32,000 nt of DNA from Thermodesulfobacteriota bacterium (GCA_026625185.1 CP113000.1:1245622-1277621), one strand, 5' to 3'; counted from the first letter of the stretch, positions 3,908 to 26,979 are shown. Notes: generated by a model from the sequence alone, not told the origin. Program-made: numbers and translations.

Positions 3908-3914
3908 GGCAATA

Positions 3915-5534: not shown

Positions 5535-5538
5535 CTTC

Positions 5539-6252: not shown

Positions 6253-6256
6253 TGAC

Positions 6257-7195
6257 TTAACTTTCTTTTAACGTAAGTTGTTGAAAAACATCCTCGAGAC
6301 TCAGCGCCTCCTGATGGAGTTCAGAGAGCACCCACCCATTCTCAGCTACCATTCGAAAAAGATCTTCGTTTATGGTCTCCTCTCCGTTGCTTATTATCTC
6401 AAAGCGACTCCGGTCATTTCCTTCGGTTTTTTGCACAGTAAAATTTTTTATTTTTTTAAAGGCGTTAAGCCGGTCTTTTATTTGCTCAACCGGCCCTCGA
6501 ACAACCATGGTTACCACCCCTCCGCCTCGAGCGCGACCGGACATCTCTTCAGGATTGCCACTGGCCACAATCCGGCCACGGTTCATGATGATGATTTTTT
6601 TACAGGTCGCTGATACTTCAGGCAAAATATGGGAACTGAGGATAACCGTTTTTTCTGCCCCCAGCCGTTTAATTAACTCTCGAATCTCAACGATTTGGTT
6701 TGGGTCCAAACCAACAGTCGGTTCATCAAGGATAAGAACCTCGGGGTTATGAATCATGGCCTGTGCCAAACCTACCCGCTGGCGAAACCCCTTGGAAAGC
6801 TCATCAATCTTTTTATTGAGCACCGGCTCCAACCCACAAACCTCAACCATTTTCTTGATCTGAGGATTAATTTTTTTCCGGGGGATATGCCGGATTTGAG
6901 CAATGAACTTTAGGTAGTCCACTACCCCCATCTCCGTATAGAGAGGGTTATTTTCGGGTAGATAACCGATGGAACGGCGGACTTCCAGAGACTGCGTAAA
7001 AACATTTTTACCCGCGATCGTGGCTGTTCCGGAATCCGCGGCAAGGTAACAGGTCAGGATTCGCATGGTAGTGGTTTTACCGGCTCCGTTTGGTCCCAGA
7101 AGTCCTACGATTTCTCCCTTGTTTACGGTAAAGGAGATGGTATCGACCGCAAGGGTAGCCCCAAAACGTTTGGTTAGGTTTTCTGCCTCAATCAT
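6257..7195 (-). CDS. ABC transporter ATP-binding protein (GldA-like)
   Basis: Walker A GPNGAGKTT, ABC signature LSKGFRQR, Walker B VLILDEP, H-loop SSHIL. Confidence 0.92.
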   Translation of the reverse strand: MIEAENLTKRFGATLAVDTISFTVNKGEIVGLLGPNGAGKTTTMRILTCYLAADSGTATIAGKNVFTQSLEVRRSIGYLPENNPLYTEMGVVDYLKFIAQIRHIPRKKINPQIKKMVEVCGLEPVLNKKIDELSKGFRQRVGLAQAMIHNPEVLILDEPTVGLDPNQIVEIRELIKRLGAEKTVILSSHILPEVSATCKKIIIMNRGRIVASGNPEEMSGRARGGGVVTMVVRGPVEQIKDRLNAFKKIKNFTVQKTEGNDRSRFEIISNGEETINEDLFRMVAENGWVLSELHQEALSLEDVFQQLTLKES

Positions 7196-7546: not shown

Positions 7547-9600
<2,054 letters not shown>

Positions 9601-9621
9601 TGGGGTTTAGGAGGGATTATA

Positions 9622-10821: not shown

Positions 10822-10935
10822 AACCAAAACCAGGCGGTACAAGGGCAGAAGCCAACATTCAGAGAAGATGTTTTTACCCCGTTAGAAACCCGGTTAAATA
10901 TCAAATACCTAAAAGGGAGAAGAAGCGGGGGTTAA

Positions 10936-11712
10936 ATGACGAAAGGAAAACAAAGCATGAACCGAGTCTCTTTGATTGCCGGGAACTGGAAAATGTACAA
11001 AACCGTTCCTGAGGCGGTAGCAACCGCTGCTCAACTTAAAGAAGCAGTAAAAGACATCTCCGGACGAGAGATTGTGATTGCCCCCCCGTTCATTTCTCTC
11101 CATCCGGTGTCCCAGGTTATTAAAGGCTCAAACATTAATCTTTGTTCTCAAGATGTGTTCTGGGAAGAGGAAGGCGCTTTTACCGGCCAAATTTCTCCGG
11201 GCATGCTTCTCAGCGCCGGGTGCACGTATACCCTTATCGGTCACTCGGAGCGAAGGCAGTATTTTGGCGAGACCAATGAGACGGTGAACAAGAAGACTAA
11301 AAAAAGCATCGATCAAGGCCTGAAGGTTATCGTTTGCATTGGAGAGGCCCTGGAAGAGCGTGAAGCCGGGAAAACTTTTTCCGTTCTGGAAATTCAAATT
11401 TCCGAAGGGCTAAAGGGATTAACTCCTGTTCATATGGACAGTGTAGTCATCGCTTATGAACCGGTCTGGGCGATTGGTACCGGTAAAACAGCAACGGCTG
11501 CGCAAGCAGAACAAGCTCACCAGTTTATAAGGGGTAAGCTTAAAGAACAATTTGATACCGGCGTAGCTGAAAAAATCCGCATCCTTTACGGCGGAAGCGT
11601 TAAGCCGGATAATATTGACCAGTTGATGGCGGAGAAAAATATTGACGGTGTTTTGGTGGGGGGAGCTTCGCTTAAGGTGGACTCTTTTTCCCGGATTGTG
11701 AAATTCACCTAA
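10936..11712 (+). CDS. tpiA: triose-phosphate isomerase
   Basis: IAGNWKMY, IGHSERR, AYEPVWAIGTG, YGGSV motifs. An alternative start at ATG 10957 (MNRVSLIAGNWKM) gives the more typical N-terminus. Confidence 0.95.
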   Translation: MTKGKQSMNRVSLIAGNWKMYKTVPEAVATAAQLKEAVKDISGREIVIAPPFISLHPVSQVIKGSNINLCSQDVFWEEEGAFTGQISPGMLLSAGCTYTLIGHSERRQYFGETNETVNKKTKKSIDQGLKVIVCIGEALEEREAGKTFSVLEIQISEGLKGLTPVHMDSVVIAYEPVWAIGTGKTATAAQAEQAHQFIRGKLKEQFDTGVAEKIRILYGGSVKPDNIDQLMAEKNIDGVLVGGASLKVDSFSRIVKFT

Positions 11713-11851
11713 GATATATATTATTTCAATGTGTTATCGGTTACCGGGAATGGACATTGAGTAAATAAAAAATTCTTGATAAAATTTTTAAAAAACAATA
11801 TTATCCCGAACTTGAAAACCTGACATTTGAAGATAAAATGGAGAAATAATC

Positions 11852-12214
11852 ATGAGTACTGTTCTTACTATCATTCATATAACCGTTTGCATTGCTTTAA
11901 TTTGCATCGTGCTTCTCCAAAGCGGTAAAGGTGCAAGCCTGGGGGCTGCCTTTGGGGGAGCAACTCAGACTGTCTTTGGGGCTTCCGGCGGAGCGGGTTT
12001 TTTTGAAAAGCTCACTACCGCCATAGCCGTTATTTTTATGGTTACTTCCGTTCTCCTGACCTATATCTCGGCAAAAAGAGGCGGAGAGACGATTATGAAA
12101 CCAAAGGCCGCGCAAGAAGAAAAAGCGGTCCCCAAAATTCCCCCGGCTCCAGGCACAGGAGCCGGGCAAAAAGCACCAAGCTCTATGCCGGCAACTCCTG
12201 CTCCTCAAAAATAA
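11852..12214 (+). CDS. secG: preprotein translocase subunit SecG
   Basis: LLQSGKGASLGAAFGG...FGASG motif between two TM helices. The conserved tpiA-secG synteny is present. It has a Pro/Ala-rich C-terminal tail. Confidence 0.9.
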   Translation: MSTVLTIIHITVCIALICIVLLQSGKGASLGAAFGGATQTVFGASGGAGFFEKLTTAIAVIFMVTSVLLTYISAKRGGETIMKPKAAQEEKAVPKIPPAPGTGAGQKAPSSMPATPAPQK

Positions 12215-12231
12215 GCAGGGTACCTTATAAT

Positions 12232-12314
<83 letters not shown>

Positions 12315-12371
12315 CATTCCTTCCTTTGAATTTCAATGTGTTACAACTCTTAAGGTGGTAAAAATCCTTTG

Positions 12372-15454: not shown

Positions 15455-16672
15455 ATGCTTGATTGCACTATCACCGTGGAATCCGGCGTTACCTGGATTA
15501 ATTTAAAAGGTCGTATTGACAGTATGACCTCACCGGAGATACAGCGGCAGATTAATGACCTCATTTTAGGGGGAGAAAGGCACTTAGTGGCTAACCTTGA
15601 GGAGATCAACTATATCAGCAGCGCAGGTTTACGCGTTTTTCTGGGAGCGCAGAAACAGCTCAAAAAGGTGGGAGGGGAGATTATTTTTTATAAAGTCTCG
15701 AGTTCAATATTTGACGTGTTTAAACTCGGGGCTTTTGATCAGATATTCCGTTTCGCGTCAACCAGAGAAGAAATTACCGGCGCACTTCATGCCGATAAAA
15801 CCTCTTTTCCTATTCGCTCAAAAGAGGTTGAGAAAATAGTATTTAACTATCTTGAAAAAAAAGCTGATCCTGGTTTCCTGAAGGTGGTGGGGTCTCAGGA
15901 AAATCTTGCTTGGGCAAAGTATATTGAGAAAGATGTGGTTACTATCAAATCAGAAGAACTCCAGTTCGGAACCGGTCTGGCTACTCTGGGTGATTGCTAC
16001 GGGGAATACAAGAATTTATTCGGCGAAGCAATGGTCATCAACCGAAACTTCTTTTTTTATCCGGCAGTTAAACGTCCGGCAGTTGATTTCATGCTTGCTG
16101 CCAACCAAGAATCCAGTCTTGAATACCGGTTTCTGCACGGCTTTGGATTCACTGGGTCCTATAAGTACGTTGTTTTATTTGAGAGTACGGAGGGCTTGGT
16201 AGAGCTGGAACGCCTGGTGAATGCTTTTTTTTCGATTTCCCAGGCGAATCTTTTGGGTTTTGTGATTCTCGGGGAAAGCAAAGGTCTCTGGGGAATGCAT
16301 TTAAAAAATAGCCCTATTTTTGAGAATCAACCTAAAAACGGCAAAGAGATTTTTGACCCGATAAACTTTGCTGACTGGGTAAACTTTCCTGTGGAGGCGG
16401 GAGATATCAACCGGATTATTGCTGCAACCGGGATTGCGATCAAGGAAGTGAGCAGGGAGCGCGGTGAAGTACAAAGCCTTTTGTCCAAGGGAGCCTGTTT
16501 TCATGTTCATGGGGCAGTATTTTCTCAGGAGCCGCTCAGTAAGAAAATAGAGCAGTTTGAAAACGAGCTTACCCGGGTTCTGACCGAACTTGAGGTTTAT
16601 AAGGTGCAGCATATACTCGGCAAGACCAGATTCAGCAGCGGAATGGTGGGGCTCGTTGAGCTTAGTTCATGA
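15455..16672 (+). CDS. STAS-domain (anti-sigma-factor-antagonist-like) protein fused to an uncharacterised domain of about 290 aa
   Basis: Residues 1 to about 110 are SpoIIAA/RsbV-like (INLKGRIDS...LEEINYISSAGLRVFLGAQKQLKKVGGEIIFYKVSSSIFDVFKLGAFDQIF). I recognise no motif in the rest. A strong RBS AGGAGG lies 6 nt upstream. It is the first gene of the ABC operon. Confidence 0.8.
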   Translation: MLDCTITVESGVTWINLKGRIDSMTSPEIQRQINDLILGGERHLVANLEEINYISSAGLRVFLGAQKQLKKVGGEIIFYKVSSSIFDVFKLGAFDQIFRFASTREEITGALHADKTSFPIRSKEVEKIVFNYLEKKADPGFLKVVGSQENLAWAKYIEKDVVTIKSEELQFGTGLATLGDCYGEYKNLFGEAMVINRNFFFYPAVKRPAVDFMLAANQESSLEYRFLHGFGFTGSYKYVVLFESTEGLVELERLVNAFFSISQANLLGFVILGESKGLWGMHLKNSPIFENQPKNGKEIFDPINFADWVNFPVEAGDINRIIAATGIAIKEVSRERGEVQSLLSKGACFHVHGAVFSQEPLSKKIEQFENELTRVLTELEVYKVQHILGKTRFSSGMVGLVELSS

Positions 16673-16703: not shown

Positions 16704-19700
16704 ATGGAACTCTGGGTTGGTGCATTAAGTCTCGGTTTGTTATACGCCTTCATGACCATGGGGGTTTTCATCACCTTTCGCATTCATAATTTCCCTGACA
16801 TTACCGTGGACGGAAGCTTTACCTCAGGGGCGGCAATAATGGCGTTACTTATTGTCACCGGATTTAACCCATTTCTGGCCCTGGGGGCTGCCTTTATCAT
16901 CGGAGCAGTCGCGGGTTGCGCTACCGCTTTGATCAATACCCGTTTAAATGTCAATGGCCTCCTGGCTGGTATTTTGGTCATGACCGGTCTTTATTCTATT
17001 AACCTGCACATCATGGGCCGGTCAAATATACCTCTTCTCAACCAGACAACGGTATTTACTTATCTCTCTGGGCTAAATCCAGGACTACAGGGAGAGATCT
17101 GGACTGGTATCGTCCTCAGTTTGGTTATGGTCCTTTTCTGGCTTGTTGTTTCTTTGTTTTTTAAAACTGATTTTGGGATTGCCATGCGGATTACCGGTAA
17201 TAATCCCACCATGGCGGCGGCAAATGGTGTTAATGTCGGCAGAATGACTATCTTTGGGGTAGCTTTGGCAAACGGTCTGGTTGGTGTTTCCGGCGGCTTG
17301 GTTGCCCAATATCAGGGATTTGCCGACATTGGAATGGGAATTGGAACGGTAGTTATCGGGCTTGCGGCAGTAATCATCGGCGAGTCCATCTTGAGGTCCC
17401 ACTCCATGTACGCAAAAGTGTTAAGCGTGCTCATTGGATCGGTGATTTTCCGGCTAATGATTGCCATTGCGCTTTTTGTGGGCATGAACCCTATTGACCT
17501 TAAACTTCTCACCGCAGGTTTTGTCCTTATTACCCTTATTATTTCTAAAACTGTTGCGGGCCGGGAAAAGAGGAGGGGGGAACTTTTCGGAAAGGTAGCC
17601 GGTTTTTTTCAGGGTAAACGAGTTGCTTACGGTTTTACTGCCATCATCATTATTATTGCGGTTGCATGGTTTGGGTATAAAAATTTTTCCCAAAGATTAA
17701 TGACACCACAAAAAATTAATAAAATCAAGGTGGTGCAGCTTACTGATAATGGACTTTTAAATATAACCCGGGACAGTTTCGTTAAAGAAATGGAAAAAAT
17801 CGGTTATCAGGATGGGCAGAATTGCACCATTAGCCTGGAAAATGCTCATGGTGATCTGCCCACCGTCAACTCCATCATTGATAAATTTCTTCAGGAGAAG
17901 GCGGACATTATCGTCACCATTTCCACCGGATGTACCCAGGCAGCAATCAATAAGATCAAGGACCGGCCAATAGTTTTTGCTACGGTTGCCAATCCGTTTA
18001 TTATTGGTGCCGGAAAATCAGAAACTGACCATGTAGCTAACGTTACTGGTGTGTACGGCTCGGTTCCCATGGACAAAACTATGGAGGTGGTCAGAAAAAT
18101 CCTGCCGGGAAAGCTCGCCATTGGAGCCATCTGGGATTCAAGCCAGGCAAATTCAGTCTTCAATGCAGAAAATCTTAAAAAAGCAGCTCAAGCTTGTGAT
18201 GGGGTGAGTTTTGCGGGAACAACCATTACCAGCTCAGCGGAAGTATATGAGGGCGCCGTATCTTTGGTACAAAAGGGGATTGGCGCTTTTGTTTTGCCGC
18301 CCGACAACATTGTTTATTCAGCTTTTGAGTCGGTGATAAAAGCCGCCAGAACCAAAAACATCCCCGTCTTCACCAGTGATGTAGAAAGGCTTGCTGATGG
18401 CGCTCTTGGTGTGCTGGGATATGATTATGCTTTAAGCGGTATTCAGGCTGCCCATCTGGTTGACCGGGTGCTAAAAGGGGAAAAACCACGGGATATCCCT
18501 TTTGAGCGGTATAGAAAGCTTACTTTTGGGCTTAACCTGGAGGTGGCAAAAACAATTGGTATATCCATATCACCTGAAGTTATTGCTCAAGCTACCATAG
18601 TTCTCGGAGGGAGAGAGACCAAAAAGCTTAAACCTAAAATAGGCCTTGTTCAGTTTGCCTTTGAACCTAATGTGGAGCTCTGCAAGCAAGGAATTCTTAA
18701 AGCCCTGGCCGAAAATGATTACCGAGATAAGGATAACATCGAAATCATCTACAAAAATGCTCAGGCTGACTTCTCTCTGATTAATTCCATTATTCAGGAT
18801 TTCCTAAGAAGGAAGGTTGATATCATTGTCCCCCTTTCAACCCCGTGTGTGCAGTCGGCAGTCCAGTTTGCTGCCGGGAAAAAAGAAACTAAAGTTGTTT
18901 TTACCTACATATTTGATCCTTACCGGATAGGAGCGGCAAAAACTCCGACCGACCATGTTCCCACTATAACGGGCGTGGCCTGCTTTCCGCCGATAGAGGG
19001 GATGCTGAATTTAATAAAAGAGATTTTCCCGGACCGGAAAAAGGTGGGCATTGTCTGGAATAGCTCGGAGGCAAACTCGGAAGCAGTGCTCCTTAAGATA
19101 CGTACCCAGGCGGCTAAGACAGGTCTTGAGGTTATCGAGGCAACCGTGACCAGCCCGGCGGAGGTTCTGGAGGCAGCACGGTCTTTGGTGAATAAAAAGG
19201 CTCAGGTTTTTTTAAATGGCGGAGACAATACCCTTAATGTGAGCTTTGACAGTTTTGTAAAGGTTGCGGACGAGAACAAAATCCCCGTTTTTTCAGTAGA
19301 TTCAGAATTTATTGAAAAAGGTTCTTTTGCGGTTCTGGGGCCTGATTATTTTCAAACCGGTTATGAAGGAGGAAACTATTTGGCCAAGGTATTGGGTGGT
19401 GAAGATATCGCAAACCTCCCTATCGGTCAGACCAAAAAAACCCTTTTTATGATCAACTTGGATATTGCCCGCAAATATGGGTTTGAGGTAGATAATGCTA
19501 TCGTGAAAAGGGCGCAGAAAGTCATTGACAGCAGCGCTAAGGTTATTGCCGCAGGCCCGCCGGTGCGGAAAAAGAGACTGGCGCTTTTTCTTTTTAGTGA
19601 ATACATTTCAATGCGTGAAACTGCCCAAGGGGTTACGGAAGAGCTTGAGCGAAGCGGCATTTTGCGGCAGCATAATATAACTATGGACACAAAAAATTCT

Positions 19701-20462
19701 CAGAACGATTTTTATTTGGCCCAGTCAATTGCTCAGGATATTGTGCGGCAAAAATATGACTATATCATCACGCTTTCTACTCCTGCACTTCAGGTAATGG
19801 CAAATGCCAATAAAAAGATTCCCCATATCTTTGGCGCGGTGACTGATCCTTACCGCATGGGGGTGGCAAAAAGCAGCACTGACCACCTTCCGAACGTGAC
19901 CGGGGTGGCGACTCTTCAACCGGTGGAGACAACCATCCGGGTTATGCGGGAACTTTTTCCTCAGGCAAAAAAAGTAGGAATTATCTGGAACCCCGCGGAA
20001 GCCTGCTCCGAAGCCTGTACCTACAAAGTCCGGGACGCGGTTAAAAAATATAGCTTTGCTCTACAGGAAATAAATGTTGACAGCACCAGTGAGGTGCTTG
20101 ATGCGTTGAAGTCCCTCTTAAACCGGAGAATTGATCTGTTTCTGACCTCCGGTGACAATACGGTCATTATGGCGCTTGAGTCGGTTGCAAAATTGCTGAA
20201 GGAGCATAAAATTCCTTATTTTACCAACGTTCCCTCGGATGTTGACCGCGGTGCGTTTGTTTCCATCGGTGCAGACTATAATGAGGTGGGTAAGGAAACA
20301 GCCCGCATGGCAGAAAGGGTAATAAGCGGAGAAAACCCCCAGGGCATTCCCATTAAAAATTATGTTCCCGAAAAAATGGCAGTTAATCTCTCCCTGGCGG
20401 GAGAGTACGGGATCAAGATTCCGGAGCCATTGCTTAAAAAAGCCGCCTATATCAAGAGGTAG
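16704..20462 (+). CDS. ABC transporter permease (COG4120-type) fused through an extra TM helix to three tandem PF04392/COG2984-type substrate-binding domains
   Basis: The N-terminal 300 aa or so are polytopic (FPDITVDGSF, LAGILVMTGLYSINLHIMG). A linker TM follows (VAYGFTAIIIIIAVAWFGY). Then come three units of about 300 aa sharing DIIVxxST, DPxxxGxxKxxTDHxxNVTGV, KVGIIWNxxEANS and IPVF landmarks. Confidence 0.85.
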   Translation: MELWVGALSLGLLYAFMTMGVFITFRIHNFPDITVDGSFTSGAAIMALLIVTGFNPFLALGAAFIIGAVAGCATALINTRLNVNGLLAGILVMTGLYSINLHIMGRSNIPLLNQTTVFTYLSGLNPGLQGEIWTGIVLSLVMVLFWLVVSLFFKTDFGIAMRITGNNPTMAAANGVNVGRMTIFGVALANGLVGVSGGLVAQYQGFADIGMGIGTVVIGLAAVIIGESILRSHSMYAKVLSVLIGSVIFRLMIAIALFVGMNPIDLKLLTAGFVLITLIISKTVAGREKRRGELFGKVAGFFQGKRVAYGFTAIIIIIAVAWFGYKNFSQRLMTPQKINKIKVVQLTDNGLLNITRDSFVKEMEKIGYQDGQNCTISLENAHGDLPTVNSIIDKFLQEKADIIVTISTGCTQAAINKIKDRPIVFATVANPFIIGAGKSETDHVANVTGVYGSVPMDKTMEVVRKILPGKLAIGAIWDSSQANSVFNAENLKKAAQACDGVSFAGTTITSSAEVYEGAVSLVQKGIGAFVLPPDNIVYSAFESVIKAARTKNIPVFTSDVERLADGALGVLGYDYALSGIQAAHLVDRVLKGEKPRDIPFERYRKLTFGLNLEVAKTIGISISPEVIAQATIVLGGRETKKLKPKIGLVQFAFEPNVELCKQGILKALAENDYRDKDNIEIIYKNAQADFSLINSIIQDFLRRKVDIIVPLSTPCVQSAVQFAAGKKETKVVFTYIFDPYRIGAAKTPTDHVPTITGVACFPPIEGMLNLIKEIFPDRKKVGIVWNSSEANSEAVLLKIRTQAAKTGLEVIEATVTSPAEVLEAARSLVNKKAQVFLNGGDNTLNVSFDSFVKVADENKIPVFSVDSEFIEKGSFAVLGPDYFQTGYEGGNYLAKVLGGEDIANLPIGQTKKTLFMINLDIARKYGFEVDNAIVKRAQKVIDSSAKVIAAGPPVRKKRLALFLFSEYISMRETAQGVTEELERSGILRQHNITMDTKNSQNDFYLAQSIAQDIVRQKYDYIITLSTPALQVMANANKKIPHIFGAVTDPYRMGVAKSSTDHLPNVTGVATLQPVETTIRVMRELFPQAKKVGIIWNPAEACSEACTYKVRDAVKKYSFALQEINVDSTSEVLDALKSLLNRRIDLFLTSGDNTVIMALESVAKLLKEHKIPYFTNVPSDVDRGAFVSIGADYNEVGKETARMAERVISGENPQGIPIKNYVPEKMAVNLSLAGEYGIKIPEPLLKKAAYIKR

Positions 20463-20464
20463 CG

Positions 20465-21277
20465 ATGATAAAAATCATTGATGTTCACAAAAGGTTTAAC
20501 CCCGGCACTGCCAATGAGGTTTATGCTCTCCGGGGCATCAACCTGCATATCGAAGAAGGTGAGTTTGTTACCGTTATCGGAACCAATGGCTCAGGCAAAT
20601 CTACCCTGCTCAATGCACTCGCCGGCGCCTTCCTGCCTGATTCCGGCTCCATAGATATTGACGGTTTGGAGGTAACGGATAAAAAAGATTTTCAAAGGGC
20701 AAAGTATATTGCCCGGGTTTTTCAAAATCCTTTTATGGGAACTGCTCCCGAGATGACCATTGCGGAAAATCTTCACATGGCCTCCTTGAGATGCAAAAGA
20801 AGCTTTCCAAAAAGAGGATTAAACGCTGAACGTCTTAAGACTTACAGAGCGGAAGTTGCTCAGCTGGAGATGCAGCTGGAGGACCGTCTTCGTAATTTTA
20901 TCGGCACCCTCTCCGGCGGTCAGCGGCAGGCATTGACCCTGCTAATGGCGGTGATCACTGAGCCCAAGGTGCTCCTTCTGGATGAGCACACGGCAGCTTT
21001 GGATCCTAAGTCGGCAGCCCAGGTTATAAAGTTGACCAAAAAATTTATTGAAGGGACTAAGCTTACCACCCTTATGGTTACCCACAGCATGCAGCAAGCT
21101 CTCGACCTCGGTACCCGCACCATTATGATGAACAAAGGACAGATTATTGACGATATCCCTCAGAAAGAAAAACAGCGGATTACAGTTAATGACCTGTTGG
21201 ACAAATTCGCCGAGCTTCGCAAAGCCGAACAGTTAACCGACGAAATGATAGAGGAGTTAAGGCAAGGATATGTTTAA
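20465..21277 (+). CDS. ABC transporter ATP-binding protein (COG1101-type partner of the COG4120 permease)
   Basis: Walker A GTNGSGKST, signature LSGGQRQ, Walker B LLLDEHTAALD, H-loop VTHSM. The start is 2 nt after the permease stop. Confidence 0.92.
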   Translation: MIKIIDVHKRFNPGTANEVYALRGINLHIEEGEFVTVIGTNGSGKSTLLNALAGAFLPDSGSIDIDGLEVTDKKDFQRAKYIARVFQNPFMGTAPEMTIAENLHMASLRCKRSFPKRGLNAERLKTYRAEVAQLEMQLEDRLRNFIGTLSGGQRQALTLLMAVITEPKVLLLDEHTAALDPKSAAQVIKLTKKFIEGTKLTTLMVTHSMQQALDLGTRTIMMNKGQIIDDIPQKEKQRITVNDLLDKFAELRKAEQLTDEMIEELRQGYV

Positions 21278-21295
21278 TCCGGGTCAGTAAAATGA

Positions 21296-21706
21296 CTATT
21301 TTTTTATTTTCATGCAGAGTTTCAGAATATTCTTTCCTTCCTCGTGCCGGTAATCCAATTCATCCACCATCTTTCGGATCAGAAAAATCCCTAAGCCTCC
21401 GATTCTCCGCTCAAATAAATCACCGGATAAATTTGGACTATTTTCAGTTAAAGGATTGAAAGGATGGCCCCAGTCCTGGATGACAAAACAAAGTTTATCC
21501 TTATTCAGCCGGGTGCACTTTACTTCCACATCACCTTCTTGCGTGGGATAAGCATAATTAATAATATTGGTGAGAACCTCTTCCAGAACCAATTCTATCC
21601 TTGAAACCATTTCCTGGGTTATATGCCAGTCTTTTATTGTCTGAAGGACAAAAGAGCGAAAGGTTTCCAATGATTCCAATTTTGCCGGTAAACGTAAGTT
21701 ATCCAT
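21296..21706 (-). CDS. RsbW/SpoIIAB-like anti-sigma regulatory factor (HATPase_c serine kinase)
   Basis: 136 aa with N-box EEVLTNIINYAY, a DWGHPFNP segment and a GGLGIFLIRKMVDE G2-box. It is the last gene of the partner-switching operon. Confidence 0.85.
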   Translation of the reverse strand: MDNLRLPAKLESLETFRSFVLQTIKDWHITQEMVSRIELVLEEVLTNIINYAYPTQEGDVEVKCTRLNKDKLCFVIQDWGHPFNPLTENSPNLSGDLFERRIGGLGIFLIRKMVDELDYRHEEGKNILKLCMKIKK

Positions 21707-21752
21707 GCCTTAATCTTGAAGTCTAATTAAGCTGAGCTTTAAAAGTTAATAA

Positions 21753-23720
21753 TTAAGCATATTGAAAAAATCCTGGATAAGGAGAATCCTCTTTTATTCC
21801 TTTAAAGCGCAAAGCTAAAACCGTAATATCGTCCGCCTGGCTGACTTCTTTAGAAAAGCTTTTAACCGCATTAACCACATTATTTACGAGCTCTTCGGGA
21901 GAATTGTCGGGGTAGGTTCGGGTGGTCTCCAGTAGTCGTTGTTCGGAGTAGAGCTCTTTGTTTTCGTTTAGGGCTTCCGTTACTCCATCGGTATAAACCA
22001 GCAGCAAATCTCCTGAGCGAAGCTCAACTTTTTTCGTATCGTATTGGGATTCCTCAAAGACTCCCAGGAAGAATCCTTTCGGAAGTTCCAGCCATTCCGG
22101 TTCTTGACCGGCCCGAACAAGCAGCGGAGGATTATGGCCTGCATTGGAGTAAAGAAGTTCTCCGGATTTGAAATTCAAAATACCGCAAAAAACGGTGACG
22201 AACATATTTGATTCATTGTCTTGGCAGAGTTCCAAATTTACTCTTTTGAGGATGTCGGAAGGCTTAAGCTGAGGTTCAGCGGTTCCTTTCAGAAGAGTCT
22301 TTGTTACCGCCATAAAGAGAGCTGCCGGTATGCCTTTATCCGAGACATCACCCACAACAAAAAAAAGATGCTCTTCATCGAGGAGAAAGAAATCGTAAAG
22401 ATCACCGCCGATTTCTTTAGCGGGTTCAAGGGAAGCAAAAATTTCAAATTCAACCTTATCCGGAAACGGCGGAAAGTGCTTTGGAAGAAAACTCATCTGA
22501 ATGGTGCGGGCAATCTTGAGCTCGCTCTCAATCCGCTCCTTGGCTGCGGTGGTGGCGGCCAGGTTGGCAATGTATTCCTTAAGGGCAACTTTCATCTCCT
22601 TAAAAGATCGGGTTAGTTTTCCGATTTCATCATTTGCCCGCACCTCCGGTAGCTCAATATCCAGATTCCCCTTGACGATTTCCGAGGTTGATCGGGCAAG
22701 AGAACCGAGCGGCTTGGTAATAGTCCGGGAGAAGAAGGCAATGACGATACAGAGGAAGGTGAATCCAACCACGCCGATGAGAAGGACTTGTTTGCTTAAC
22801 CGGCTCACATCAGCAAATAGTTCTTCCTCCGGGAAGATCACTCCGAGGGACCAGCCGTTGGAAGGCAAGGGGGCATAATACATCCAGGATTTTTTTCCGG
22901 AGACAAAGTCTTGGAGAGGCACGAACCCCGGTTCGCCGGTGATCATTTTTCTCCCAACTTGGCGCAGGGTGGAGTCTTTTCTCGCTTCGGCAATACTGAA
23001 GATGCTTTCCTTCATGATCAATTGCTTTTCGGGGTGCGTGACCATGACCCCGTTTTGGGAGATCAAAAAAGCGTATCCGGTCTTATAGATTTTTACCGAA
23101 GATACAATATCCTTTAACCACATCAGGGAAATATCAGCAGTGACAACTCCCCGGAATTTATTTTTGCCGTCTATTTTTTTATAAAAGGGCACGGAATAAG
23201 TGGACATAATGATATTGCCGGCGCCTTCATCATAAAAGGGCTCGCTCCATACCGGGGAGTCAATTTCCTTGGGGATCTGAAACCAGTCGAGGTAAAAATA
23301 CCGGTAGGAGTCACTTCCCAAAAATGTTAAGATGATCTTTTCATTATTACGGTAATAATAAGGAGCAAAGTATAATAAAGTCGGATTAAAGGCGTACGGT
23401 TCAAAGGCAAAGGTTGAACCAAATATCTCCGGATTATTTGCAACCGCGCTTTGTACTAATTTCAAAAGATCTTGGCGTTGGTAGGGGTATTTTTCAATGA
23501 TGGAGGCTTGATTAAGCGGCACCTCTTCAACCGACCTGAGGACCGTCTCAATTTTATAAACGGTAGATAGGGTGAGGTTGCGGGCGTTTTCTTCAATGTT
23601 TTTTAGTAAAGTTTTTTTTGAATAATGGTAGTTATAAACGAAAGCCGCAACAAAGATGATGGTGGTGCTGGTTAAGATAAAGATAATGAGTTTAAAAGCG
23701 AGCCCTAAATTTTTAATCAT
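21753..23720 (-). CDS. membrane sensor phosphatase: TM, Cache-like periplasmic domain, TM, HAMP, PP2C (SpoIIE/RsbU family)
   Basis: Two TM helices flank about 280 aa containing YKTGYAFLISQNGVMVTHPE (Cache-like). HAMP segment is TKPLGSLARSTSEIVKGNLDIELP...IGKLTRSFKEM. PP2C motifs are ARTIQMSFLP, GGDLYDFF, VVGDVSDKGIPAALFMA, YTDGVTEA, DDITVLALRF. Confidence 0.88.
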   Translation of the reverse strand: MIKNLGLAFKLIIFILTSTTIIFVAAFVYNYHYSKKTLLKNIEENARNLTLSTVYKIETVLRSVEEVPLNQASIIEKYPYQRQDLLKLVQSAVANNPEIFGSTFAFEPYAFNPTLLYFAPYYYRNNEKIILTFLGSDSYRYFYLDWFQIPKEIDSPVWSEPFYDEGAGNIIMSTYSVPFYKKIDGKNKFRGVVTADISLMWLKDIVSSVKIYKTGYAFLISQNGVMVTHPEKQLIMKESIFSIAEARKDSTLRQVGRKMITGEPGFVPLQDFVSGKKSWMYYAPLPSNGWSLGVIFPEEELFADVSRLSKQVLLIGVVGFTFLCIVIAFFSRTITKPLGSLARSTSEIVKGNLDIELPEVRANDEIGKLTRSFKEMKVALKEYIANLAATTAAKERIESELKIARTIQMSFLPKHFPPFPDKVEFEIFASLEPAKEIGGDLYDFFLLDEEHLFFVVGDVSDKGIPAALFMAVTKTLLKGTAEPQLKPSDILKRVNLELCQDNESNMFVTVFCGILNFKSGELLYSNAGHNPPLLVRAGQEPEWLELPKGFFLGVFEESQYDTKKVELRSGDLLLVYTDGVTEALNENKELYSEQRLLETTRTYPDNSPEELVNNVVNAVKSFSKEVSQADDITVLALRFKGIKEDSPYPGFFQYA

Positions 23721-24696
23721 GGGATACGCAATCTATAAAAAAATCCGAGAAACTCGGGACAGCAGTGATTAAGCGATTTACCTTAAGCTCCTGAACAACG
23801 CGATTATAATCGCCGGCTTGAAGAGTTCCCAAAGGGACAGTATTACCGGACGGATTAATGATGTCTTTCATACGTTCCAGCATCCATTTCTGGTGAACCC
23901 GGTTCGTAGCGATATTGCCGTCCACTACATACTTCATAACAATATCGAGGGCCGGTTCGGGGTTATCGAAGGCGTACTCCCATCCTTCGAGGGATGCTTT
24001 CACAAAATCACGGCACAAGGCGGGATCATGGTCAAAGGTCTTTTTTAAACAGTAAATACCGTCTTCGGGAAAGTTTACGCTATATTCAGAAAGGAAAAAG
24101 GTCGTTAATTCAGTCGGATTTATACCGGAATTGATAATGGTATGGTACTCATTGTACCACATGGCGGACGCTACATCTACCCCGTTGCGTAAAAATAGGT
24201 TCAGGGTTGCGGACTGGGGAATAATGGTAACGTGAAGGTTGTGCTTTTTGAAAAATGCCTTGGGCTGGACCTGAAATTCACTTCCCCAGAGACCCACTTT
24301 CCTCCCGTTGATATCCCGGGGGGAGTATATGCCGCTTGACTTTTTCGCCACCAACATGAGGGATGATCGTTGGACAATTTGACCGATATTAACTATGGGG
24401 AGCCCCTGGGAGCGCTTTTGGATTCCGGTGGAGAGGAACATGGTTCCAAAATCCGCGCGTTTCTCCTTTAATAGCGCCGAAGGTGGGTAATCGGGGCCGC
24501 CACGTAAAATTTTTACCTCCAATCCGTGTTTCCGGTAAAATCCTTTCTCCTGGGCGACAAAGTAACCGGCAAACTGGGACTGAGGAACCCATTGGGGTAT
24601 AAAAGTCGTTTTTTTTAAACCCTTTTCGTTTGCCTGAGCCGCTATAGTTATCAATAAAAGCAAGGCAAAAAGAAAGAATATTTTAAATTTTAGCAC
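23713..24696 (-). CDS. periplasmic substrate-binding protein, NMT1/THI5-like (NitT/TauT-type SBP)
   Basis: Signal peptide MLKFKIFFLFALLLLITIAAQA and a QWVPQSQFAGYFVAQEKGFYRKHGLEVKI motif. Its stop overlaps the phosphatase start by 8 nt (ATGATTAA). Confidence 0.8.
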   Translation of the reverse strand: MLKFKIFFLFALLLLITIAAQANEKGLKKTTFIPQWVPQSQFAGYFVAQEKGFYRKHGLEVKILRGGPDYPPSALLKEKRADFGTMFLSTGIQKRSQGLPIVNIGQIVQRSSLMLVAKKSSGIYSPRDINGRKVGLWGSEFQVQPKAFFKKHNLHVTIIPQSATLNLFLRNGVDVASAMWYNEYHTIINSGINPTELTTFFLSEYSVNFPEDGIYCLKKTFDHDPALCRDFVKASLEGWEYAFDNPEPALDIVMKYVVDGNIATNRVHQKWMLERMKDIINPSGNTVPLGTLQAGDYNRVVQELKVNRLITAVPSFSDFFIDCVSHD

Positions 24697-24728
24697 CCAG
24701 CATCCTTCTGAAGCTTTTCAATTTTTTT

Positions 24729-25061
24729 TTAAATCTGTGACCGAGCAGATTCCACGGATTCAAAGATGGGGATAATAGAACGGAATCCGGAAATTTCGAA
24801 AACCTCCTTTACCATACCTTTAAGTCCGGCAATCAGAAGCTTTCCATCTTTTTCTTTAAGTTTTTTGGTTATCGTGAGGATGCTGCGAAGGCCGGAGCTG
24901 CTGATATAATCAAGCGCAGCAAAGTCAAGTATTAAAGCGTTATTTCCTTCAGCAATTAATGCGGCCATTTCTTTTTCAAACTCCGGTGAGGAAACAGCAT
25001 CCATCCTCCCTTTTAATGAAACCACTGCTGCCTCTTGTTCCCGTTTTTTTTCTATCTCCAT
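24729..25061 (-). CDS. STAS-domain anti-sigma-factor antagonist (RsbV/SpoIIAA-like)
   Basis: 110 aa: VSLKGRMDAVSSPEFEKEM...LDFAALDYISSSGLRSILTITKKLKEKDGKLLIAGLKGMVKEVFEISGF. The serine at the phospho-acceptor position is retained. Confidence 0.88.
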   Translation of the reverse strand: MEIEKKREQEAAVVSLKGRMDAVSSPEFEKEMAALIAEGNNALILDFAALDYISSSGLRSILTITKKLKEKDGKLLIAGLKGMVKEVFEISGFRSIIPIFESVESARSQI

Positions 25062-25160
25062 AATAGGCTTTCTAATTTAATGTGATTAGCGTTTTTTCGG
25101 AATTTATGCTGCTTTTTTATTTCTTGGTAACGATCCAAAAAATTCTTTTTTTGTCGATAT

Positions 25161-25189
25161 TTTTTTAACCTATTGGCGCGGGAAAGTCA
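25161..25189 (-). promoter_or_regulatory. candidate sigma70 promoter for the STAS-SBP-phosphatase-kinase operon
   Basis: On the minus strand: TTGACT (25189-25184), a 17-nt spacer, then TAAAAA (25166-25161), about 100 nt upstream of ATG 25061. Confidence 0.3.
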
Positions 25190-25199
25190 ATCCTATTGA

Positions 25200-25285
25200 T
25201 TTTCCTTATTAACCGAAACCCATAAGCGGAGTCCCTCCCAGGTCTTCTTTTCATTGGGTGTTTTTTCAAAAAGTCCTTTCTTCCC
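25200..25285 (+). repeat. intergenic repeat family, copy 1
   Basis: TTATTAAC (25205-25212), 12 nt, GCGGAGTCCCTCCCAGGTC (25225-25243), then TTTTTTCAAAAAGTCCT (to about 25276). It is collinear with copies 2 and 3. Confidence 0.6.
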
Positions 25286-25326
25286 TTAATGGTTATTCCT
25301 ATCATCCTTTCGTCTAATTTTAATTC

Positions 25327-25425
25327 CCCCTAATCACTCCATCACTAACCACTAATCCCTGCGCCTTCAGGGCGCACGCAATCCCTTCGGCCCTGCCAGG
25401 CCGGAGTGAGGAAGTGATAAAGGGG
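25327..25425. ncRNA. candidate structured RNA or element (GC-rich, three-way-junction-like); identity and strand unknown
   Basis: Outer stem ATCACTCCATCACT (25333-25346) pairs with AGTGAGGAAGTGAT (25405-25418) at 12 of 14 positions. It is flanked by CCCC/GGGG and encloses hairpins TGCGCC-TTCAG-GGCGCA (25360-25376) and CGGCC-CTGCCA-GGCCG (25388-25403). Confidence 0.25.
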
Positions 25426-25590
25426 AAAAGGGGTCAGAAGAAAAGTTTTACGAATTTTTCTTCCGCAGTTTTCCAATTATTGTATTAATCATCTTCAATA
25501 TCTCGTTGCTTACACCATTTCTTTCAGCAAATGTTTTCGATGAGATAAAATTTATATCTTTACATTTTCCCAGCCAATTTTGAACTTCAG

Positions 25591-26098
25591 GTGTTGATCG
25601 GTAGTTACTCACTTATAGAGTTTGATTTTGGCACAAAAACTATTGATGCCATAAGCCAATGGTTGCCAGGTTCGCCCCCGCTTTTTTTTGTTAATAAAAA
25701 TTCTCCTATGGATCGTTTACGATTTAGCGTTGACCATGAGTTAGGTCATATTGTAATGCATAAAGTTTGTGGGCTGGATATAAAAAAAAATGGGAAAACA
25801 AGCAGACGATTTCGCTTAAGAAATTCTTATGCCCGAAGACGCTATATCTCGTTTCTTAAATAATATTACCCTTCCGCAACTTGCTAATTTAAAATCATAT
25901 TGGAAAGTATTCATGGCAGCTCTTTTGCATCGTTCATATGATCTAAAAAAAATTACAACAAGGCAATATCAATACTTATGGATGCAAATGGGGAAAGCTG
26001 GCTATCGAACAAAGGAACCGCCTGAATTTGATATTCCCAAAGAAATACCTTCTTTATTAAAAGATCTAATTGAAACTTATCGCCAAAAATATGTTTGA
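25591..26098 (+). pseudogene. ImmA/IrrE-family zinc metallopeptidase (DUF955), N-terminally truncated, frameshifted, with an internal stop
   Basis: Contains RFSVDHELGHIVMH (the HExxH motif). The frame changes at an A9 run (25782-25790). The shifted frame reads MGKQADDFA-TAA(25817-25819)-EILMPEDAISRF, matching the family's ANxFAxxxLMP segment. The remainder continues as track ORF 25829-26098. Confidence 0.65.
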
Positions 26099-26146
26099 CA
26101 TGCTTGAGCGGCTCAAATGTATTATAATTTTGCTCGGATTCATTAG

Positions 26147-26230
26147 ACTTTGAGAATAACTCCGGCAATGACGGCGGAGGAGACGGATCATGTTTGGTCT
26201 TTGGAAGAAATGGTAGGTTTATTGGATTAG
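26147..26230 (+). mobile_element. IS transposase C-terminal tail remnant (about 27 codons)
   Basis: Translation TLRITPAMTAEETDHVWSLEEMVGLLD* matches the recurrent TPAMAAGxTDHVWSxEEL tail that I recall from a class of IS transposases (IS1/IS1595-like; family uncertain). A stop lies immediately upstream, so only the tail survives. It overlaps the pyrF stop by 4 nt. Confidence 0.45.
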
Positions 26231-26979
26231 GATAAAGCTTGTTCGATTTCTTTTGCTATTTTTTTAACAGCCTCGATGGGATCGGGGGCATTCTTGATTG
26301 GTCTGCCAACGACAATATAATCGGCCCCATCTTTTATAGCATCATAGGGGGTGGTTATTCTTTTTTGATCATCCGCATTTACCACACTCCATTTTGGACG
26401 GATCGCAGGAACAACGACAATAAAATCTTTTCCAAATTCTTGTTTTACCGCCTTCACTTCCTTGCCAGAACATACTACTCCTGAACATCCAGCTAATTTA
26501 GCTAATCTTGCCCTATGGAGAACGAGTTGAGTTGGGTCTTGTAAATCTTCTCTAATACCAATTTCTTTTAAATCTTCTTTTGATAAACTTGTTAAGACTG
26601 TTATTCCTAATATCTTTGTTCCATTTTTAACGCTATCGACAACAGCTTTTAACAATCCCTTTCCTTCTTCACAATGAACAGTTATAAATGTAGCATGGTG
26701 GGCATTGGCGGCTTTTTGTGCGCCACTAACTGTTTCGGGAATATCGTGAAACTTCATATCTAAAAAAATTTTTGTAGGAGTTTCTTCGGCAATAGCTCTT
26801 AGTATCTTGGGACCTTCTTTTACGAATAATTCTAAACCAACTTTAAATAACCCAATGTAATTCTTAAGAAGTCTTACATAATGAGTGGCTTCATCAAGAG
26901 TAGGTAGATCTAATGGAAATATTATATATTCGTGAGGTTTTTTAGAAGAACCACTTTTTAAGTCCATTTTTTTGGCCAT
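26227..26979 (-). CDS. pyrF: orotidine 5'-phosphate decarboxylase
   Basis: IFPLDLP, FKVGLELF, FLDMKFHDIPETV, ITVLTS, VVGRPI motifs. It is visibly more AT-rich, with more AGA/TTA codons, than the core genes in this window. Confidence 0.9.
   Translation of the reverse strand: MAKKMDLKSGSSKKPHEYIIFPLDLPTLDEATHYVRLLKNYIGLFKVGLELFVKEGPKILRAIAEETPTKIFLDMKFHDIPETVSGAQKAANAHHATFITVHCEEGKGLLKAVVDSVKNGTKILGITVLTSLSKEDLKEIGIREDLQDPTQLVLHRARLAKLAGCSGVVCSGKEVKAVKQEFGKDFIVVVPAIRPKWSVVNADDQKRITTPYDAIKDGADYIVVGRPIKNAPDPIEAVKKIAKEIEQALS

What the first reader, a model, noticed from the sequence alone, without database searches (positions are those of the whole stretch)
21753..24696. Periplasmic binding protein translationally coupled to a Cache-HAMP-PP2C phosphatase
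Seen: the NMT1-like SBP stop codon overlaps the phosphatase start by 8 nt (ATGATTAA at 23713-23720). The SBP sits between the STAS gene and the phosphatase inside the partner-switching operon, and no cognate permease or ATPase lies in that operon. Established: orphan SBPs can act as co-sensors for membrane receptors (LuxP-LuxQ, TorT-TorS, ChvE-VirA). Inference: the SBP delivers a ligand signal to the phosphatase periplasmic Cache domain, giving two-tier sensing upstream of STAS dephosphorylation.
Basis: partly seen in the sequence, partly recalled or inferred. Interest (0 to 1): 0.5.

Follow-up and report, generated by a model that had tools for sequence, protein, structure and literature searches.

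The report
Binding protein paired with amine-sensing phosphatase
A secreted binding protein with no transporter of its own is always encoded directly in front of one particular membrane sensor, across many bacterial phyla, which suggests the two form a previously unreported two-part sensor.

Summary
On the minus strand lie STAS (25061-24729), a secreted NMT1/ThiY-like binding protein (SBP, 24696-23713), a dCache-HAMP-PP2C phosphatase (23720-21753) and an RsbW-like kinase (21706-21296). The SBP stop and the phosphatase start overlap in ATGATTAA.

The SBP-dCache gene pair is strongly conserved:
- All 79 testable genome loci found with the SBP have a homologous dCache receptor directly downstream, under a dozen or more phylum labels.
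- Most pairs overlap by 4-26 nt.
- No ABC permease or ATPase is ever adjacent.
- The pairing persists when the output changes from PP2C to adenylate cyclase or histidine kinase.

The reciprocal search found the SBP upstream of 62 of 73 receptors. The SBP-less receptors repeatedly carry Arg/Lys at position 148.

The Desulfovibrio inopinatus receptor R3 is 52% identical and binds ethanolamine directly. Its gene is also preceded by this SBP, which that paper never mentions.

The likeliest reading is a two-input sensor: the Cache domain binds an amine, and a dedicated SBP co-sensor docks on it. Physical contact and the SBP ligand are untested. I rate it a new variant of a known kind.

The parts
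24729..25061 (-). STAS-domain protein (RsbV/SpoIIAA-like), the presumed phosphorylatable substrate of the switch. It carries the motif DYISSSGL.
   Evidence: Pfam STAS E 1e-23. Sequence read.
23713..24696 (-). Secreted NMT1/ThiY-like solute-binding protein, 327 aa, with no transporter of its own. Proposed co-sensor of the receptor.
   Evidence: Pfam NMT1 E 8e-42. AF2 model pLDDT 89.8. Best structural matches are the thiamin-bound SBP 4nmy and ThiY 3ix1, TM 0.76-0.87. 5471 homologues at E<=1e-10.
24631..24696 (-). Signal peptide of the SBP (about aa 1-22, MLKFKIFFLFALLLLITIAAQA/NE).
   Evidence: Read from the translation. Modelled as a lone N-terminal helix, H2-25. The cleavage site is inferred.
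23713..23720 (-). ATGATTAA, where the SBP stop codon and the phosphatase start codon overlap. Consistent with translational coupling.
   Evidence: Overlaps of 4-26 nt occur in about 118 of 136 homologous pairs.
21753..23720 (-). Membrane receptor phosphatase, 655 aa: TM1, periplasmic dCache_1AM, TM2, HAMP, PP2C (SpoIIE).
   Evidence: Pfam. Identical to WAC08746.1 from a Thermodesulfobacteriota MAG. 52% identical to the characterised R3, WP_027185430.1.
22794..23600 (-). Periplasmic double-Cache sensor domain (about aa 41-309) with the amine-motif residues Y121/Y141, W146, M172, T174 and D196.
   Evidence: The family profile matches 3lib at E 1e-38. Pocket residues are invariant in 121-125 of 125 family members. 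The motif variant Y-W-M-T-D is listed for family members in Dataset S1 of PMC10104139.
22578..22736 (-). HAMP domain (aa 329-381).
   Evidence: Pfam HAMP E 2e-12.
21804..22376 (-). PP2C/SpoIIE phosphatase domain (aa 449-639). The metal-binding Asp motifs GGDLYD, GDVSDKG, YTDG and ADDIT are present.
   Evidence: Pfam SpoIIE E 2.7e-56. Motifs read.
21296..21706 (-). RsbW/SpoIIAB-like serine kinase (HATPase_c_2), the partner of the STAS protein.
   Evidence: Pfam HATPase_c_2 E 1e-26.

Best explanation
The SBP and the periplasmic dCache domain of the phosphatase form one dedicated two-protein sensor. It feeds a STAS/kinase partner switch.

Shown:
1. The two genes are co-transcribed and overlap.
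2. The pair is conserved as a unit across phyla and across output domains.
3. The SBP has no adjacent transporter anywhere.
4. The Cache domain carries the full dCache_1AM amine-binding motif.
5. A 52%-identical family member that has the same SBP gene upstream binds ethanolamine directly.

Inferred:
1. The mature SBP stays in the periplasm and docks on the dCache domain.
2. Its closest solved relatives bind thiamin or aminopyrimidines, and more distant ones bind 2-aminoethyl compounds. It either binds a second, related ligand or tunes the receptor's response to the amine held in the Cache pocket.
3. The combined signal passes through TM2 and HAMP and sets PP2C activity.
4. PP2C dephosphorylates the STAS protein, which then sequesters the RsbW-like kinase and releases an unidentified target.

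In short, this is a dual-input sensor: direct amine sensing plus an SBP co-sensor. It is not a pure LuxP-LuxQ-type indirect sensor.
For: **Pair conservation**
- 79 of 79 testable genome loci found through the SBP have a homologous dCache receptor immediately downstream. Cache-domain BLAST scores against the window's domain are 240-420 bits.
- The loci carry a dozen or more phylum-level labels, including Thermodesulfobacteriota, Planctomycetota, Bacteroidota, Nitrospirota, Omnitrophota, Verrucomicrobiota, Acidobacteriota, Elusimicrobiota, Alpha- and Betaproteobacteria.
- The pairing holds down to 32-34% SBP identity.
- The reciprocal search found the SBP upstream of 62 of 73 receptors.

**Output is swapped while the pair is kept**
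- Tally over the 160 loci: PP2C 120, PP2C-kinase fusion 6, class III cyclase 13, GAF-HisKA-HATPase 8.
- The first-scan cyclase loci, where flanks of up to 8 kb were available, show no STAS or kinase hit, so the SBP follows the Cache domain and not the switch.

**No transporter**
- An ABC ATPase-like ORF occurs in only 14 of 160 loci and is never adjacent to the SBP.

**Coupled expression**
- About 118 of 136 pairs overlap by 4-26 nt.

**Co-divergence**
- r(SBP, Cache) = 0.80. This exceeds r(Cache, PP2C) = 0.60 within the same polypeptide.
- The partial correlation of SBP with Cache, controlling for PP2C, is 0.68.

**Loss signature**
- The SBP-less receptors are phylogenetically scattered and keep the pocket residues.
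- They have R/K at position 148 in 9 of 12 cases against 0 of 126 with an SBP (p = 6e-12).
- They also show N223K and loss of R253.

**SBP clade used as a sensor elsewhere**
- Five MCPsignal-NMT1 fusion proteins were found.

**Direct sensing by the Cache domain**
- The family profile matches 3lib at E 1e-38.
- Motif residues are invariant across the family.
- Family members are listed as dCache_1AM.
- R3 binds ethanolamine at 2.3 uM and ethylenediamine at 29.6 uM.
- R3 is P0376, and an NMT1 SBP gene overlaps its start by 17 nt.
Against:
- 11 of 73 close receptor homologues have no adjacent SBP, and R3's isolated domain binds its ligand alone. The SBP is therefore not required for ligand binding as such.
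- The SBP ligand is unknown. The nearest solved relatives share only 18-23% identity.
- No natural SBP-Cache fusion appears among the best 150 cluster representatives.
- The mirror-tree correlations and the Fisher tests are not corrected for shared ancestry.
- The target of the partner switch is unidentified. There is no sigma factor in the operon.
- Many loci are MAG contigs whose taxonomic labels are unverified.
Confidence: 0.6

Rival explanations
1. Pure indirect sensing of the LuxP-LuxQ type. The SBP is the only ligand-binding element, and the Cache domain merely reads out the SBP's open or closed state.
For: - Strict SBP-Cache pairing and overlapping genes.
- The SBP has many invariant aromatic and acidic residues, which suggests a conserved ligand cleft.
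- Known precedents pair an SBP with a dCache-like domain: LuxPQ, HptAS, NspS-MbaA and ChiS-CBP (PMC8050422).
Against: - The distal Cache pocket is almost invariant and matches the amine motif.
- The family member R3 binds ethanolamine without the SBP.
- SBP-less receptors keep the whole pocket.
Confidence: 0.1
2. The SBP is a ligand-independent accessory subunit. It would act as a constitutive partner that stabilises, dimerises, inhibits or localises the receptor. All chemical sensing would be done by the Cache pocket.
For: - Overlapping genes suggest co-ordinated, possibly stoichiometric, production.
- The receptor can bind its amine alone.
- Convergent substitutions at positions 148, 223 and 253 in SBP-less receptors would fit compensation for a lost protein contact.
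Against: - The SBP keeps the two-lobe fold at high confidence.
- Some 65 invariant positions persist across sequences only 57-88% identical to the window's SBP, including conserved loop motifs WxPQxQFAGY, MWYNEY and FPEDGxY. Whether these line the cleft was not established. A mere scaffold would be expected to lose them.
- Fused MCP-NMT1 proteins use this clade as a sensor domain.
Confidence: 0.15
3. The SBP is an ordinary ThiY/TauA-like uptake protein serving an ABC transporter encoded elsewhere. It is only co-transcribed with the receptor.
For: - Pfam NMT1 match and structural similarity to the transporter SBPs 4nmy, 3ix1, TauA and SsuA.
- Public annotation names it 'ABC transporter substrate-binding protein'.
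- Whole genomes could not be scanned for orphan permeases.
Against: - None of 160 loci has an adjacent permease or ATPase.
- All 79 testable loci pair the SBP with one specific Cache clade regardless of output domain.
- The association persists down to 32% identity.
- The neighbouring ABC system in the window has its own three fused binding domains of a different family.
Confidence: 0.05

Closest known systems
dCache_1AM amine-sensing receptors (Cerna-Vargas et al. 2023, PMC10589655). The closest members are the Ser/Thr phosphatase R3 (WP_027185430.1, Desulfovibrio inopinatus) and the M. mazei kinase sensor 3LIB.
   Same: - Same architecture: dCache_1-HAMP-SpoIIE.
- Same motif variant, Y-W-M-T-D.
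- 52% identity to R3 over the full length.
- The family profile matches 3lib at E 1e-38.
- A member of the same 90% cluster as locus L077 is listed in the paper's Dataset S1.
   Different: The paper treats these proteins as stand-alone direct sensors and never mentions an SBP. Here the receptor clade, R3 included, is shown to be encoded with a dedicated, overlapping NMT1 SBP gene.
SBP-stimulated receptors with dCache-like sensor domains: LuxP-LuxQ, HptA-HptS, NspS-MbaA, ScrB-ScrC, CBP-ChiS and ChvE-VirA (review PMC8050422).
   Same: - An SBP gene lies next to a receptor gene and not next to a transporter.
- The receptor has a periplasmic double-Cache or tandem PDC domain.
- Some of these SBPs are dedicated to signalling.
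   Different: - The SBP family (NMT1/PF09084) is not among the 13 families listed in the review.
- The outputs found here, PP2C phosphatase and class III cyclase, are not among the receptor classes listed.
- Unlike LuxQ, the Cache domain here has an intact ligand pocket, experimentally validated in a homologue.
- Physical interaction is not shown here.
RsbU-RsbV-RsbW / SpoIIE-SpoIIAA-SpoIIAB partner-switching modules, including receptor-type RsbU phosphatases with periplasmic sensor domains.
   Same: PP2C phosphatase, a STAS protein with the conserved Ser motif, and an HATPase_c_2 kinase in one operon.
   Different: - No sigma factor or other obvious target is present in the operon.
- An SBP gene is inserted between STAS and the phosphatase.
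- The order and position of the STAS and kinase genes vary among relatives, while SBP-Cache adjacency does not.
ThiY / thiamin-binding SBP 4NMY and TauA/SsuA (NMT1-clan ABC transporter binding proteins).
   Same: - Same fold: TM 0.76-0.87 to 4nmy and 3ix1, and 0.67-0.70 to TauA and SsuA.
- Pfam NMT1 E 8e-42.
- The protein is secreted.
   Different: - Only 18-23% identity to the solved relatives.
- No linked permease or ATPase in any of 160 loci.
- Always linked to a dCache receptor.

Membership tests
dCache_1AM (amine-binding double-Cache domain) | Presence of the AM_motif at aligned pocket positions. The variant listed for PP2C receptors is Y..W..M..T..D. | tested here: met
   - The window has Y121/Y141, W146, M172, T174 and D196. 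Each is conserved in 112-124 of 125 family members (T174 the least).
- R3 and WP_156180964.1, which is in the same 90% cluster as the L077 receptor, are listed with Y{n1}W{n2}M{n3}T{n4}D in Dataset S1.
- My position mapping rests on alignment to R3 and 3lib, not on the authors' own alignment.
dCache_1AM (amine-binding double-Cache domain) | Sequence homology to the structurally defined members (3LIB, PctD 7PRQ, PacA 7PSG, McpX 6D8V). | tested here: met
   Family profile against PDB: 3lib E 1.4e-38, 7psg E 1.2e-19, 6d8v E 2.6e-14, 7prq E 1.9e-11.
dCache_1AM (amine-binding double-Cache domain) | Direct binding of a biogenic amine by the isolated domain. | not testable with these tools
   Shown experimentally for R3 (ethanolamine 2.3 uM, ethylenediamine 29.6 uM). 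R3's Cache domain is 46% identical to the window's. Not measured for the window protein.
SBP-stimulated receptor systems (LuxP-LuxQ type) | A secreted SBP encoded with the receptor gene and lacking a linked transporter. | tested here: met
   Signal peptide present. 79 of 79 loci pair the SBP with the receptor. None of 160 loci has an adjacent ABC ATPase.
SBP-stimulated receptor systems (LuxP-LuxQ type) | Physical complex between the SBP and the receptor's ligand-binding domain. | not testable with these tools
Only indirect support exists: co-divergence (r = 0.80) and convergent substitutions at positions 148, 223 and 253 in SBP-less receptors.
SBP-stimulated receptor systems (LuxP-LuxQ type) | A ligand bound to the SBP changes receptor output. 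| not testable with these tools
   No ligand is known. The closest solved relatives bind thiamin and formylaminopyrimidine.
RsbU/RsbV/RsbW-type partner switch | PP2C phosphatase, a STAS protein with a phosphorylatable Ser, and an HATPase_c_2 kinase encoded together. | tested here: met
   Pfam E-values of 2.7e-56, 1e-23 and 1e-26. STAS motif DYISSSGL and the PP2C Asp motifs were read.
RsbU/RsbV/RsbW-type partner switch | An identifiable target of the kinase or anti-sigma factor, such as a sigma factor. | tested here: not met
   No sigma factor gene appears among the ORFs scanned across the window. The only candidate is a second STAS-containing protein, 15455..16672, next to an ABC importer.
NMT1/ThiY-type ABC transporter binding protein | NMT1 fold and sequence family. 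| tested here: met
   Pfam NMT1 E 8e-42. Foldseek TM 0.76-0.87 to 4nmy and 3ix1.
NMT1/ThiY-type ABC transporter binding protein | Operon linkage to a cognate permease and ATPase. | tested here: not met
   - None in the operon.
- None adjacent in 160 related loci.
- The neighbouring importer uses PF04392 binding domains fused to a BPD_transp_2 permease.
- Whole genomes were not scanned.

The most novel reading that the evidence does not exclude
The NMT1 SBP and the dCache_1AM domain form an obligate heteromeric sensor that recognises or integrates ligands jointly. One possibility is that the SBP holds a 2-aminoethyl- or aminopyrimidine-type compound whose amine group, or a second amine cue, is read by the Cache pocket. 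The module would then work as an AND-gate or an affinity and specificity switch. It would be a widespread, portable two-protein input module, found under a dozen or more phylum labels and represented by 343 clusters (50% identity) at E<=1e-30. Evolution would have plugged it into PP2C partner switches, cAMP/cGMP cyclases and histidine kinases. It would also mean that published dCache_1AM receptors such as R3 have been characterised without half of their sensor.
Probability: 0.3. Interest if true: 0.75.

Novelty: new variant of a known kind. Interest (0 to 1): 0.6.

Why it matters
- **Known categories extended.** SBP-assisted receptors and amine-sensing dCache domains are each known. I found no report of an invariant, overlapping pairing of an NMT1/ThiY-like SBP with one dCache_1AM receptor clade in the searchable literature. 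The 2021 review of SBP signalling lists 13 SBP families and four receptor classes, and includes neither NMT1 nor PP2C phosphatases nor adenylate cyclases.
- **A characterised receptor may be incomplete.** The pairing includes R3 of D. inopinatus, so the ligand profile measured on its isolated domain may not describe the whole sensor.
- **A ready test system.** R3 and its SBP give an immediate experimental system for asking how an SBP modulates a Cache domain that also binds its own ligand. The role of the membrane-proximal Cache module is an open question in that field.
- **Annotation.** Thousands of proteins labelled 'ABC transporter substrate-binding protein' (5471 homologues at E<=1e-10) are probably signalling proteins.

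Tried and rejected
- **Complex modelling.** I tried to model the SBP-Cache complex as one chain joined by a Gly-Ser linker. There is therefore no interface prediction.
- **Natural fusions.** I looked for a natural SBP-Cache fusion among the best 150 cluster representatives and found none. Only MCPsignal-NMT1 fusions and tandem NMT1 proteins turned up.
- **Microcompartment link.** One distant locus (L161) lies beside microcompartment genes (BMC, EutN, PTAC, aldehyde dehydrogenase), which hinted at ethanolamine or choline catabolism. No BMC, EutN or PTAC homologue occurs in the other 160 loci, so I dropped the link.
- **Literature.** Searches combining NMT1, Cache, SpoIIE, RsbU, partner switching and solute-binding protein found no paper describing this pair.
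- **Supplements.** The supplements of the PNAS version of the dCache_1AM paper are not held. The preprint's supplements are held, and I used those.
- **RNA and signal scans.** Rfam found nothing in the window. Promoter and terminator scans of 21000-26300 returned no more sites than shuffled sequence.
- **Neighbouring importer.** I considered whether the convergent ABC importer could be the SBP's transporter. I rejected this because it has three fused PF04392 binding domains of its own and a BPD_transp_2-type permease.
Full report
**1. What is in the sequence**

The interval holds the middle of a four-gene minus-strand operon:
- a STAS protein (25061..24729, Pfam STAS E 1e-23, motif DYISSSGL);
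- an NMT1-family solute-binding protein (SBP, 24696..23713, GTG start, E 8e-42);
- a 655-aa receptor with two transmembrane segments, a periplasmic double-Cache domain, HAMP and a PP2C/SpoIIE domain (23720..21753, SpoIIE E 2.7e-56, all metal-binding Asp motifs present);
- an RsbW-like kinase (21706..21296, HATPase_c_2 E 1e-26).

The SBP has a classical signal peptide (…ITIAAQA/NE) and no lipobox cysteine. Its reading frame ends CAT GAT TAA, and the receptor begins ATG ATT AAA. The 8-nt overlap ATGATTAA at 23713-23720 is therefore real. The sequence is identical to a Thermodesulfobacteriota MAG (SBP = P0001, receptor = WAC08746.1).

**2. The neighbourhood**

However, a complete ABC importer lies convergently 18 bp beyond the kinase gene:
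- a 1252-aa protein in which a BPD_transp_2 permease is fused to three PF04392 (ABC_sub_bind) binding domains (16704..20462);
- an ATPase (20465..21277).

This system has its own binding domains of a different family, so it is not the missing transporter for the NMT1 protein.

**3. Co-conservation, starting from the SBP**

An alignment of 31 SBP homologues (A1) was used to scan one genome per species.
- 587 stretches encoded relatives, and the best 80 loci were kept.
- In 79 of them the next gene downstream on the same strand encodes a protein whose N-terminal 325 residues are homologous to the window's Cache region (38-59% identity, 240-420 bits).
- The 80th contig ends at the SBP stop codon.
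- Record titles span Thermodesulfobacteriota, Planctomycetota, Bacteroidota (Bacteroidales, Ignavibacteria, Rhodothermales), Nitrospirota, Omnitrophota, Elusimicrobiota, Verrucomicrobiota, Acidobacteriota, Hydrogenedentota, Coprothermobacterota and Bdellovibrionota.
- They also include the isolates Rhodopseudomonas palustris JSC-3b and Azonexus hydrophilus.
- SBPs only 32-34% identical to the query are still followed by a dCache-HAMP-SpoIIE gene.

**4. What the SBP follows**

The STAS and kinase genes move about. They can be upstream, downstream, on the opposite strand or absent. The SBP-Cache junction never changes.

The output domain behind the same Cache-HAMP module also changes. Over 160 loci the tally is 120 PP2C, 6 PP2C-kinase fusions, 13 class III adenylate/guanylate cyclases and 8 GAF-HisKA-HATPase histidine kinases. 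The histidine kinases are themselves followed by REC-PP2C, kinase and STAS genes. The first-scan cyclase loci, which have flanks of up to 8 kb, show no STAS or kinase hit in those flanks. The SBP therefore belongs to the periplasmic sensor module, not to the partner switch.

**5. No transporter**

An ABC ATPase-like ORF occurs within the 6-8 kb flanks of only 14 of 160 loci, and it is never next to the SBP.

**6. Coupled expression**

Of 136 pairs where both ends could be read, about 118 overlap. The commonest overlaps are 14, 11, 4, 26 and 8 nt.

**7. Reciprocal test**

A metagenome scan with a Cache-domain alignment (A2) gave 73 loci with enough upstream sequence to test. 62 have the SBP immediately upstream and 11 do not.

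The SBP-less receptors are scattered among SBP-linked ones, with nearest neighbours up to 89% identical. They keep every pocket residue. They differ at three positions, each of which passes a Bonferroni threshold for 275 columns:
- position 148 is R/K in 9 of 12, against 0 of 126 SBP-linked receptors (Fisher p = 6e-12);
- N223 becomes K;
- R253 is lost.

These tests do not correct for phylogeny. Repeated substitution at the same sites suggests those sites matter for the SBP relationship.

**8. Co-divergence**

Across 92 loci, pairwise distances of the SBP and the Cache domain correlate at r = 0.80. This is higher than the correlation between the Cache domain and the PP2C domain of the same polypeptide (0.60). 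The partial correlation of SBP with Cache, controlling for PP2C, is 0.68.

**9. What the SBP looks like**

The AlphaFold model built with A1 is confident (pLDDT 89.8). Its best PDB matches are the thiamin-bound SBP 4nmy (TM 0.76/0.83) and the formylaminopyrimidine-binding ThiY 3ix1 (TM 0.81/0.87). THI5, TauA and SsuA follow.

Many aromatic and acidic residues are invariant across the family, in the motifs WxPQxQFAGY, MWYNEY and FPEDGxY. The ligand is unknown. An amine-bearing small molecule is a reasonable guess but only a guess.

Five cluster representatives are membrane-anchored MCP signalling domains with this NMT1 clade fused at the C-terminus. The clade is thus used as a sensor domain elsewhere. 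No SBP-Cache fusion was seen.

**10.

The Cache family profile matches the M. mazei kinase sensor 3lib at E 1e-38. Cerna-Vargas et al. 2023 (PMC10589655) define the amine-binding family dCache_1AM. It includes 3LIB (R1, which binds methylamines) and a Ser/Thr phosphatase, R3 (WP_027185430.1, Desulfovibrio inopinatus). R3's isolated domain binds ethanolamine (Kd 2.3 uM) and ethylenediamine (29.6 uM).

The evidence tying the window's receptor to this family is as follows:
- The preprint's Dataset S1 lists R3 with the motif Y-W-M-T-D and the architecture dCache_1,HAMP,SpoIIE.
- It lists WP_156180964.1 in the same way. That protein sits in the same 90% cluster as the SBP-linked receptor of locus L077.
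- The corresponding residues are nearly invariant in the family studied here and are present in the window protein.
- I recovered R3 as P0376.
- In its genome (AUBP01000032.1) the gene is directly preceded by an NMT1 SBP gene that overlaps it by 17 nt.
- R3 is 52% identical to the window receptor, and its SBP is 51% identical to the window SBP.
- The paper never mentions a solute-binding protein.
- The 2021 review of SBP-mediated signalling lists neither NMT1 SBPs nor phosphatase or cyclase receptors.

**11. Interpretation**

Two things hold together. First, the SBP is a dedicated partner of this Cache domain. Second, the Cache domain is very probably a direct amine sensor.

The most economical model is a dual-input periplasmic sensor. 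The Cache distal pocket binds a small primary amine. The SBP, with or without a ligand of its own, docks on the Cache domain and modifies the signal. That signal passes through HAMP to PP2C, and from there to the STAS/kinase switch.

Three alternatives remain, in decreasing order of likelihood:
- a ligand-independent accessory role for the SBP;
- pure LuxP-type indirect sensing;
- a transporter role for the SBP.

Contact between the two proteins, the SBP ligand and the target of the switch are all untested. The complex prediction could not be run.

**12. Verdict**

This is a new variant of two known kinds, SBP-assisted receptors and dCache_1AM sensors. It has a ready experimental system in R3 and its unreported SBP.

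Noticed in passing
window 16704-20462 (+), with the ATPase at 20465-21277 (+): A 1252-aa protein fuses a BPD_transp_2-type ABC permease (aa 7-277) to three tandem PF04392 (ABC_sub_bind) binding domains (E 1e-158). An ABC ATPase follows it. Solved PF04392 proteins bind L-Trp, L-Tyr and L-Phe (PMC10443332). A permease carrying three fused binding domains is unusual. Homologues with 56% identity occur in L109 and L111.
   Followed up: partly
window 15455-16672 (+): - A 405-aa protein has an N-terminal STAS domain with the Ser motif NYISSAGL, plus about 290 residues with no Pfam match. It sits directly upstream of the permease-SBP fusion.
- Its homologues (52-60% identity) lie on the same strand directly downstream of the PP2C receptor gene in L109, L111 and L103. 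They also occur near the switch in L022 and L100.
- PF04392 binding-protein genes also follow the STAS or kinase genes in L003, L067, L082, L078 and L087 and lie near R3 in L165.
- This protein could be a second substrate or the output of the partner switch, linking it to control of that importer.
   Followed up: partly
P0238, P0268, P0285, P0299, P0301 (locus L164 for P0285): Proteins of 628-727 aa consist of a short N-terminal membrane hairpin, an MCP signalling domain and a C-terminal NMT1 domain. The NMT1 domain is 34-42% identical to the window SBP. No transmembrane segment separates the MCP and NMT1 domains, so they appear to be chemoreceptors with a cytoplasmic NMT1 sensor domain.
   Followed up: partly
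window 23745-23757 (-): A small GC-rich hairpin followed by a T-run (CCGAGTTTCTCGG ATTTTTTTAT) lies inside the 3' end of the SBP gene, about 25 nt before the phosphatase start. It could lower read-through and make the SBP more abundant than the receptor. However, terminator-like hits in this region are no more frequent than in shuffled sequence.
   Followed up: no
window 25062-26226: About 1.1 kb with no ORF above 100 aa and no Rfam match lies between the STAS gene and the upstream OMP decarboxylase gene (26227-26979). It presumably holds the operon's promoter, but no convincing sigma-70-type site was found.
   Followed up: no
L161 1-2533: One distant SBP-receptor locus lies beside bacterial microcompartment genes (BMC shell, EutN/CcmL, PduL-type phosphotransacylase, aldehyde dehydrogenase). 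This is suggestive given ethanolamine binding by R3, but it was not seen in any of the other 160 loci.
   Followed up: yes
window 2888-7195 (-): A gliding-type ABC-2 cluster comprising an ATPase (6257-7195), an ABC-2 permease (5539-6252), ABC_transp_aux/DUF7088 (3915-5603) and DUF4340 (2888-3907). A glycolysis block (GAPDH, PGK, TIM, SecG, tRNA-Leu) lies at 8596-12315. Both are ordinary context, unrelated to the finding.
   Followed up: no
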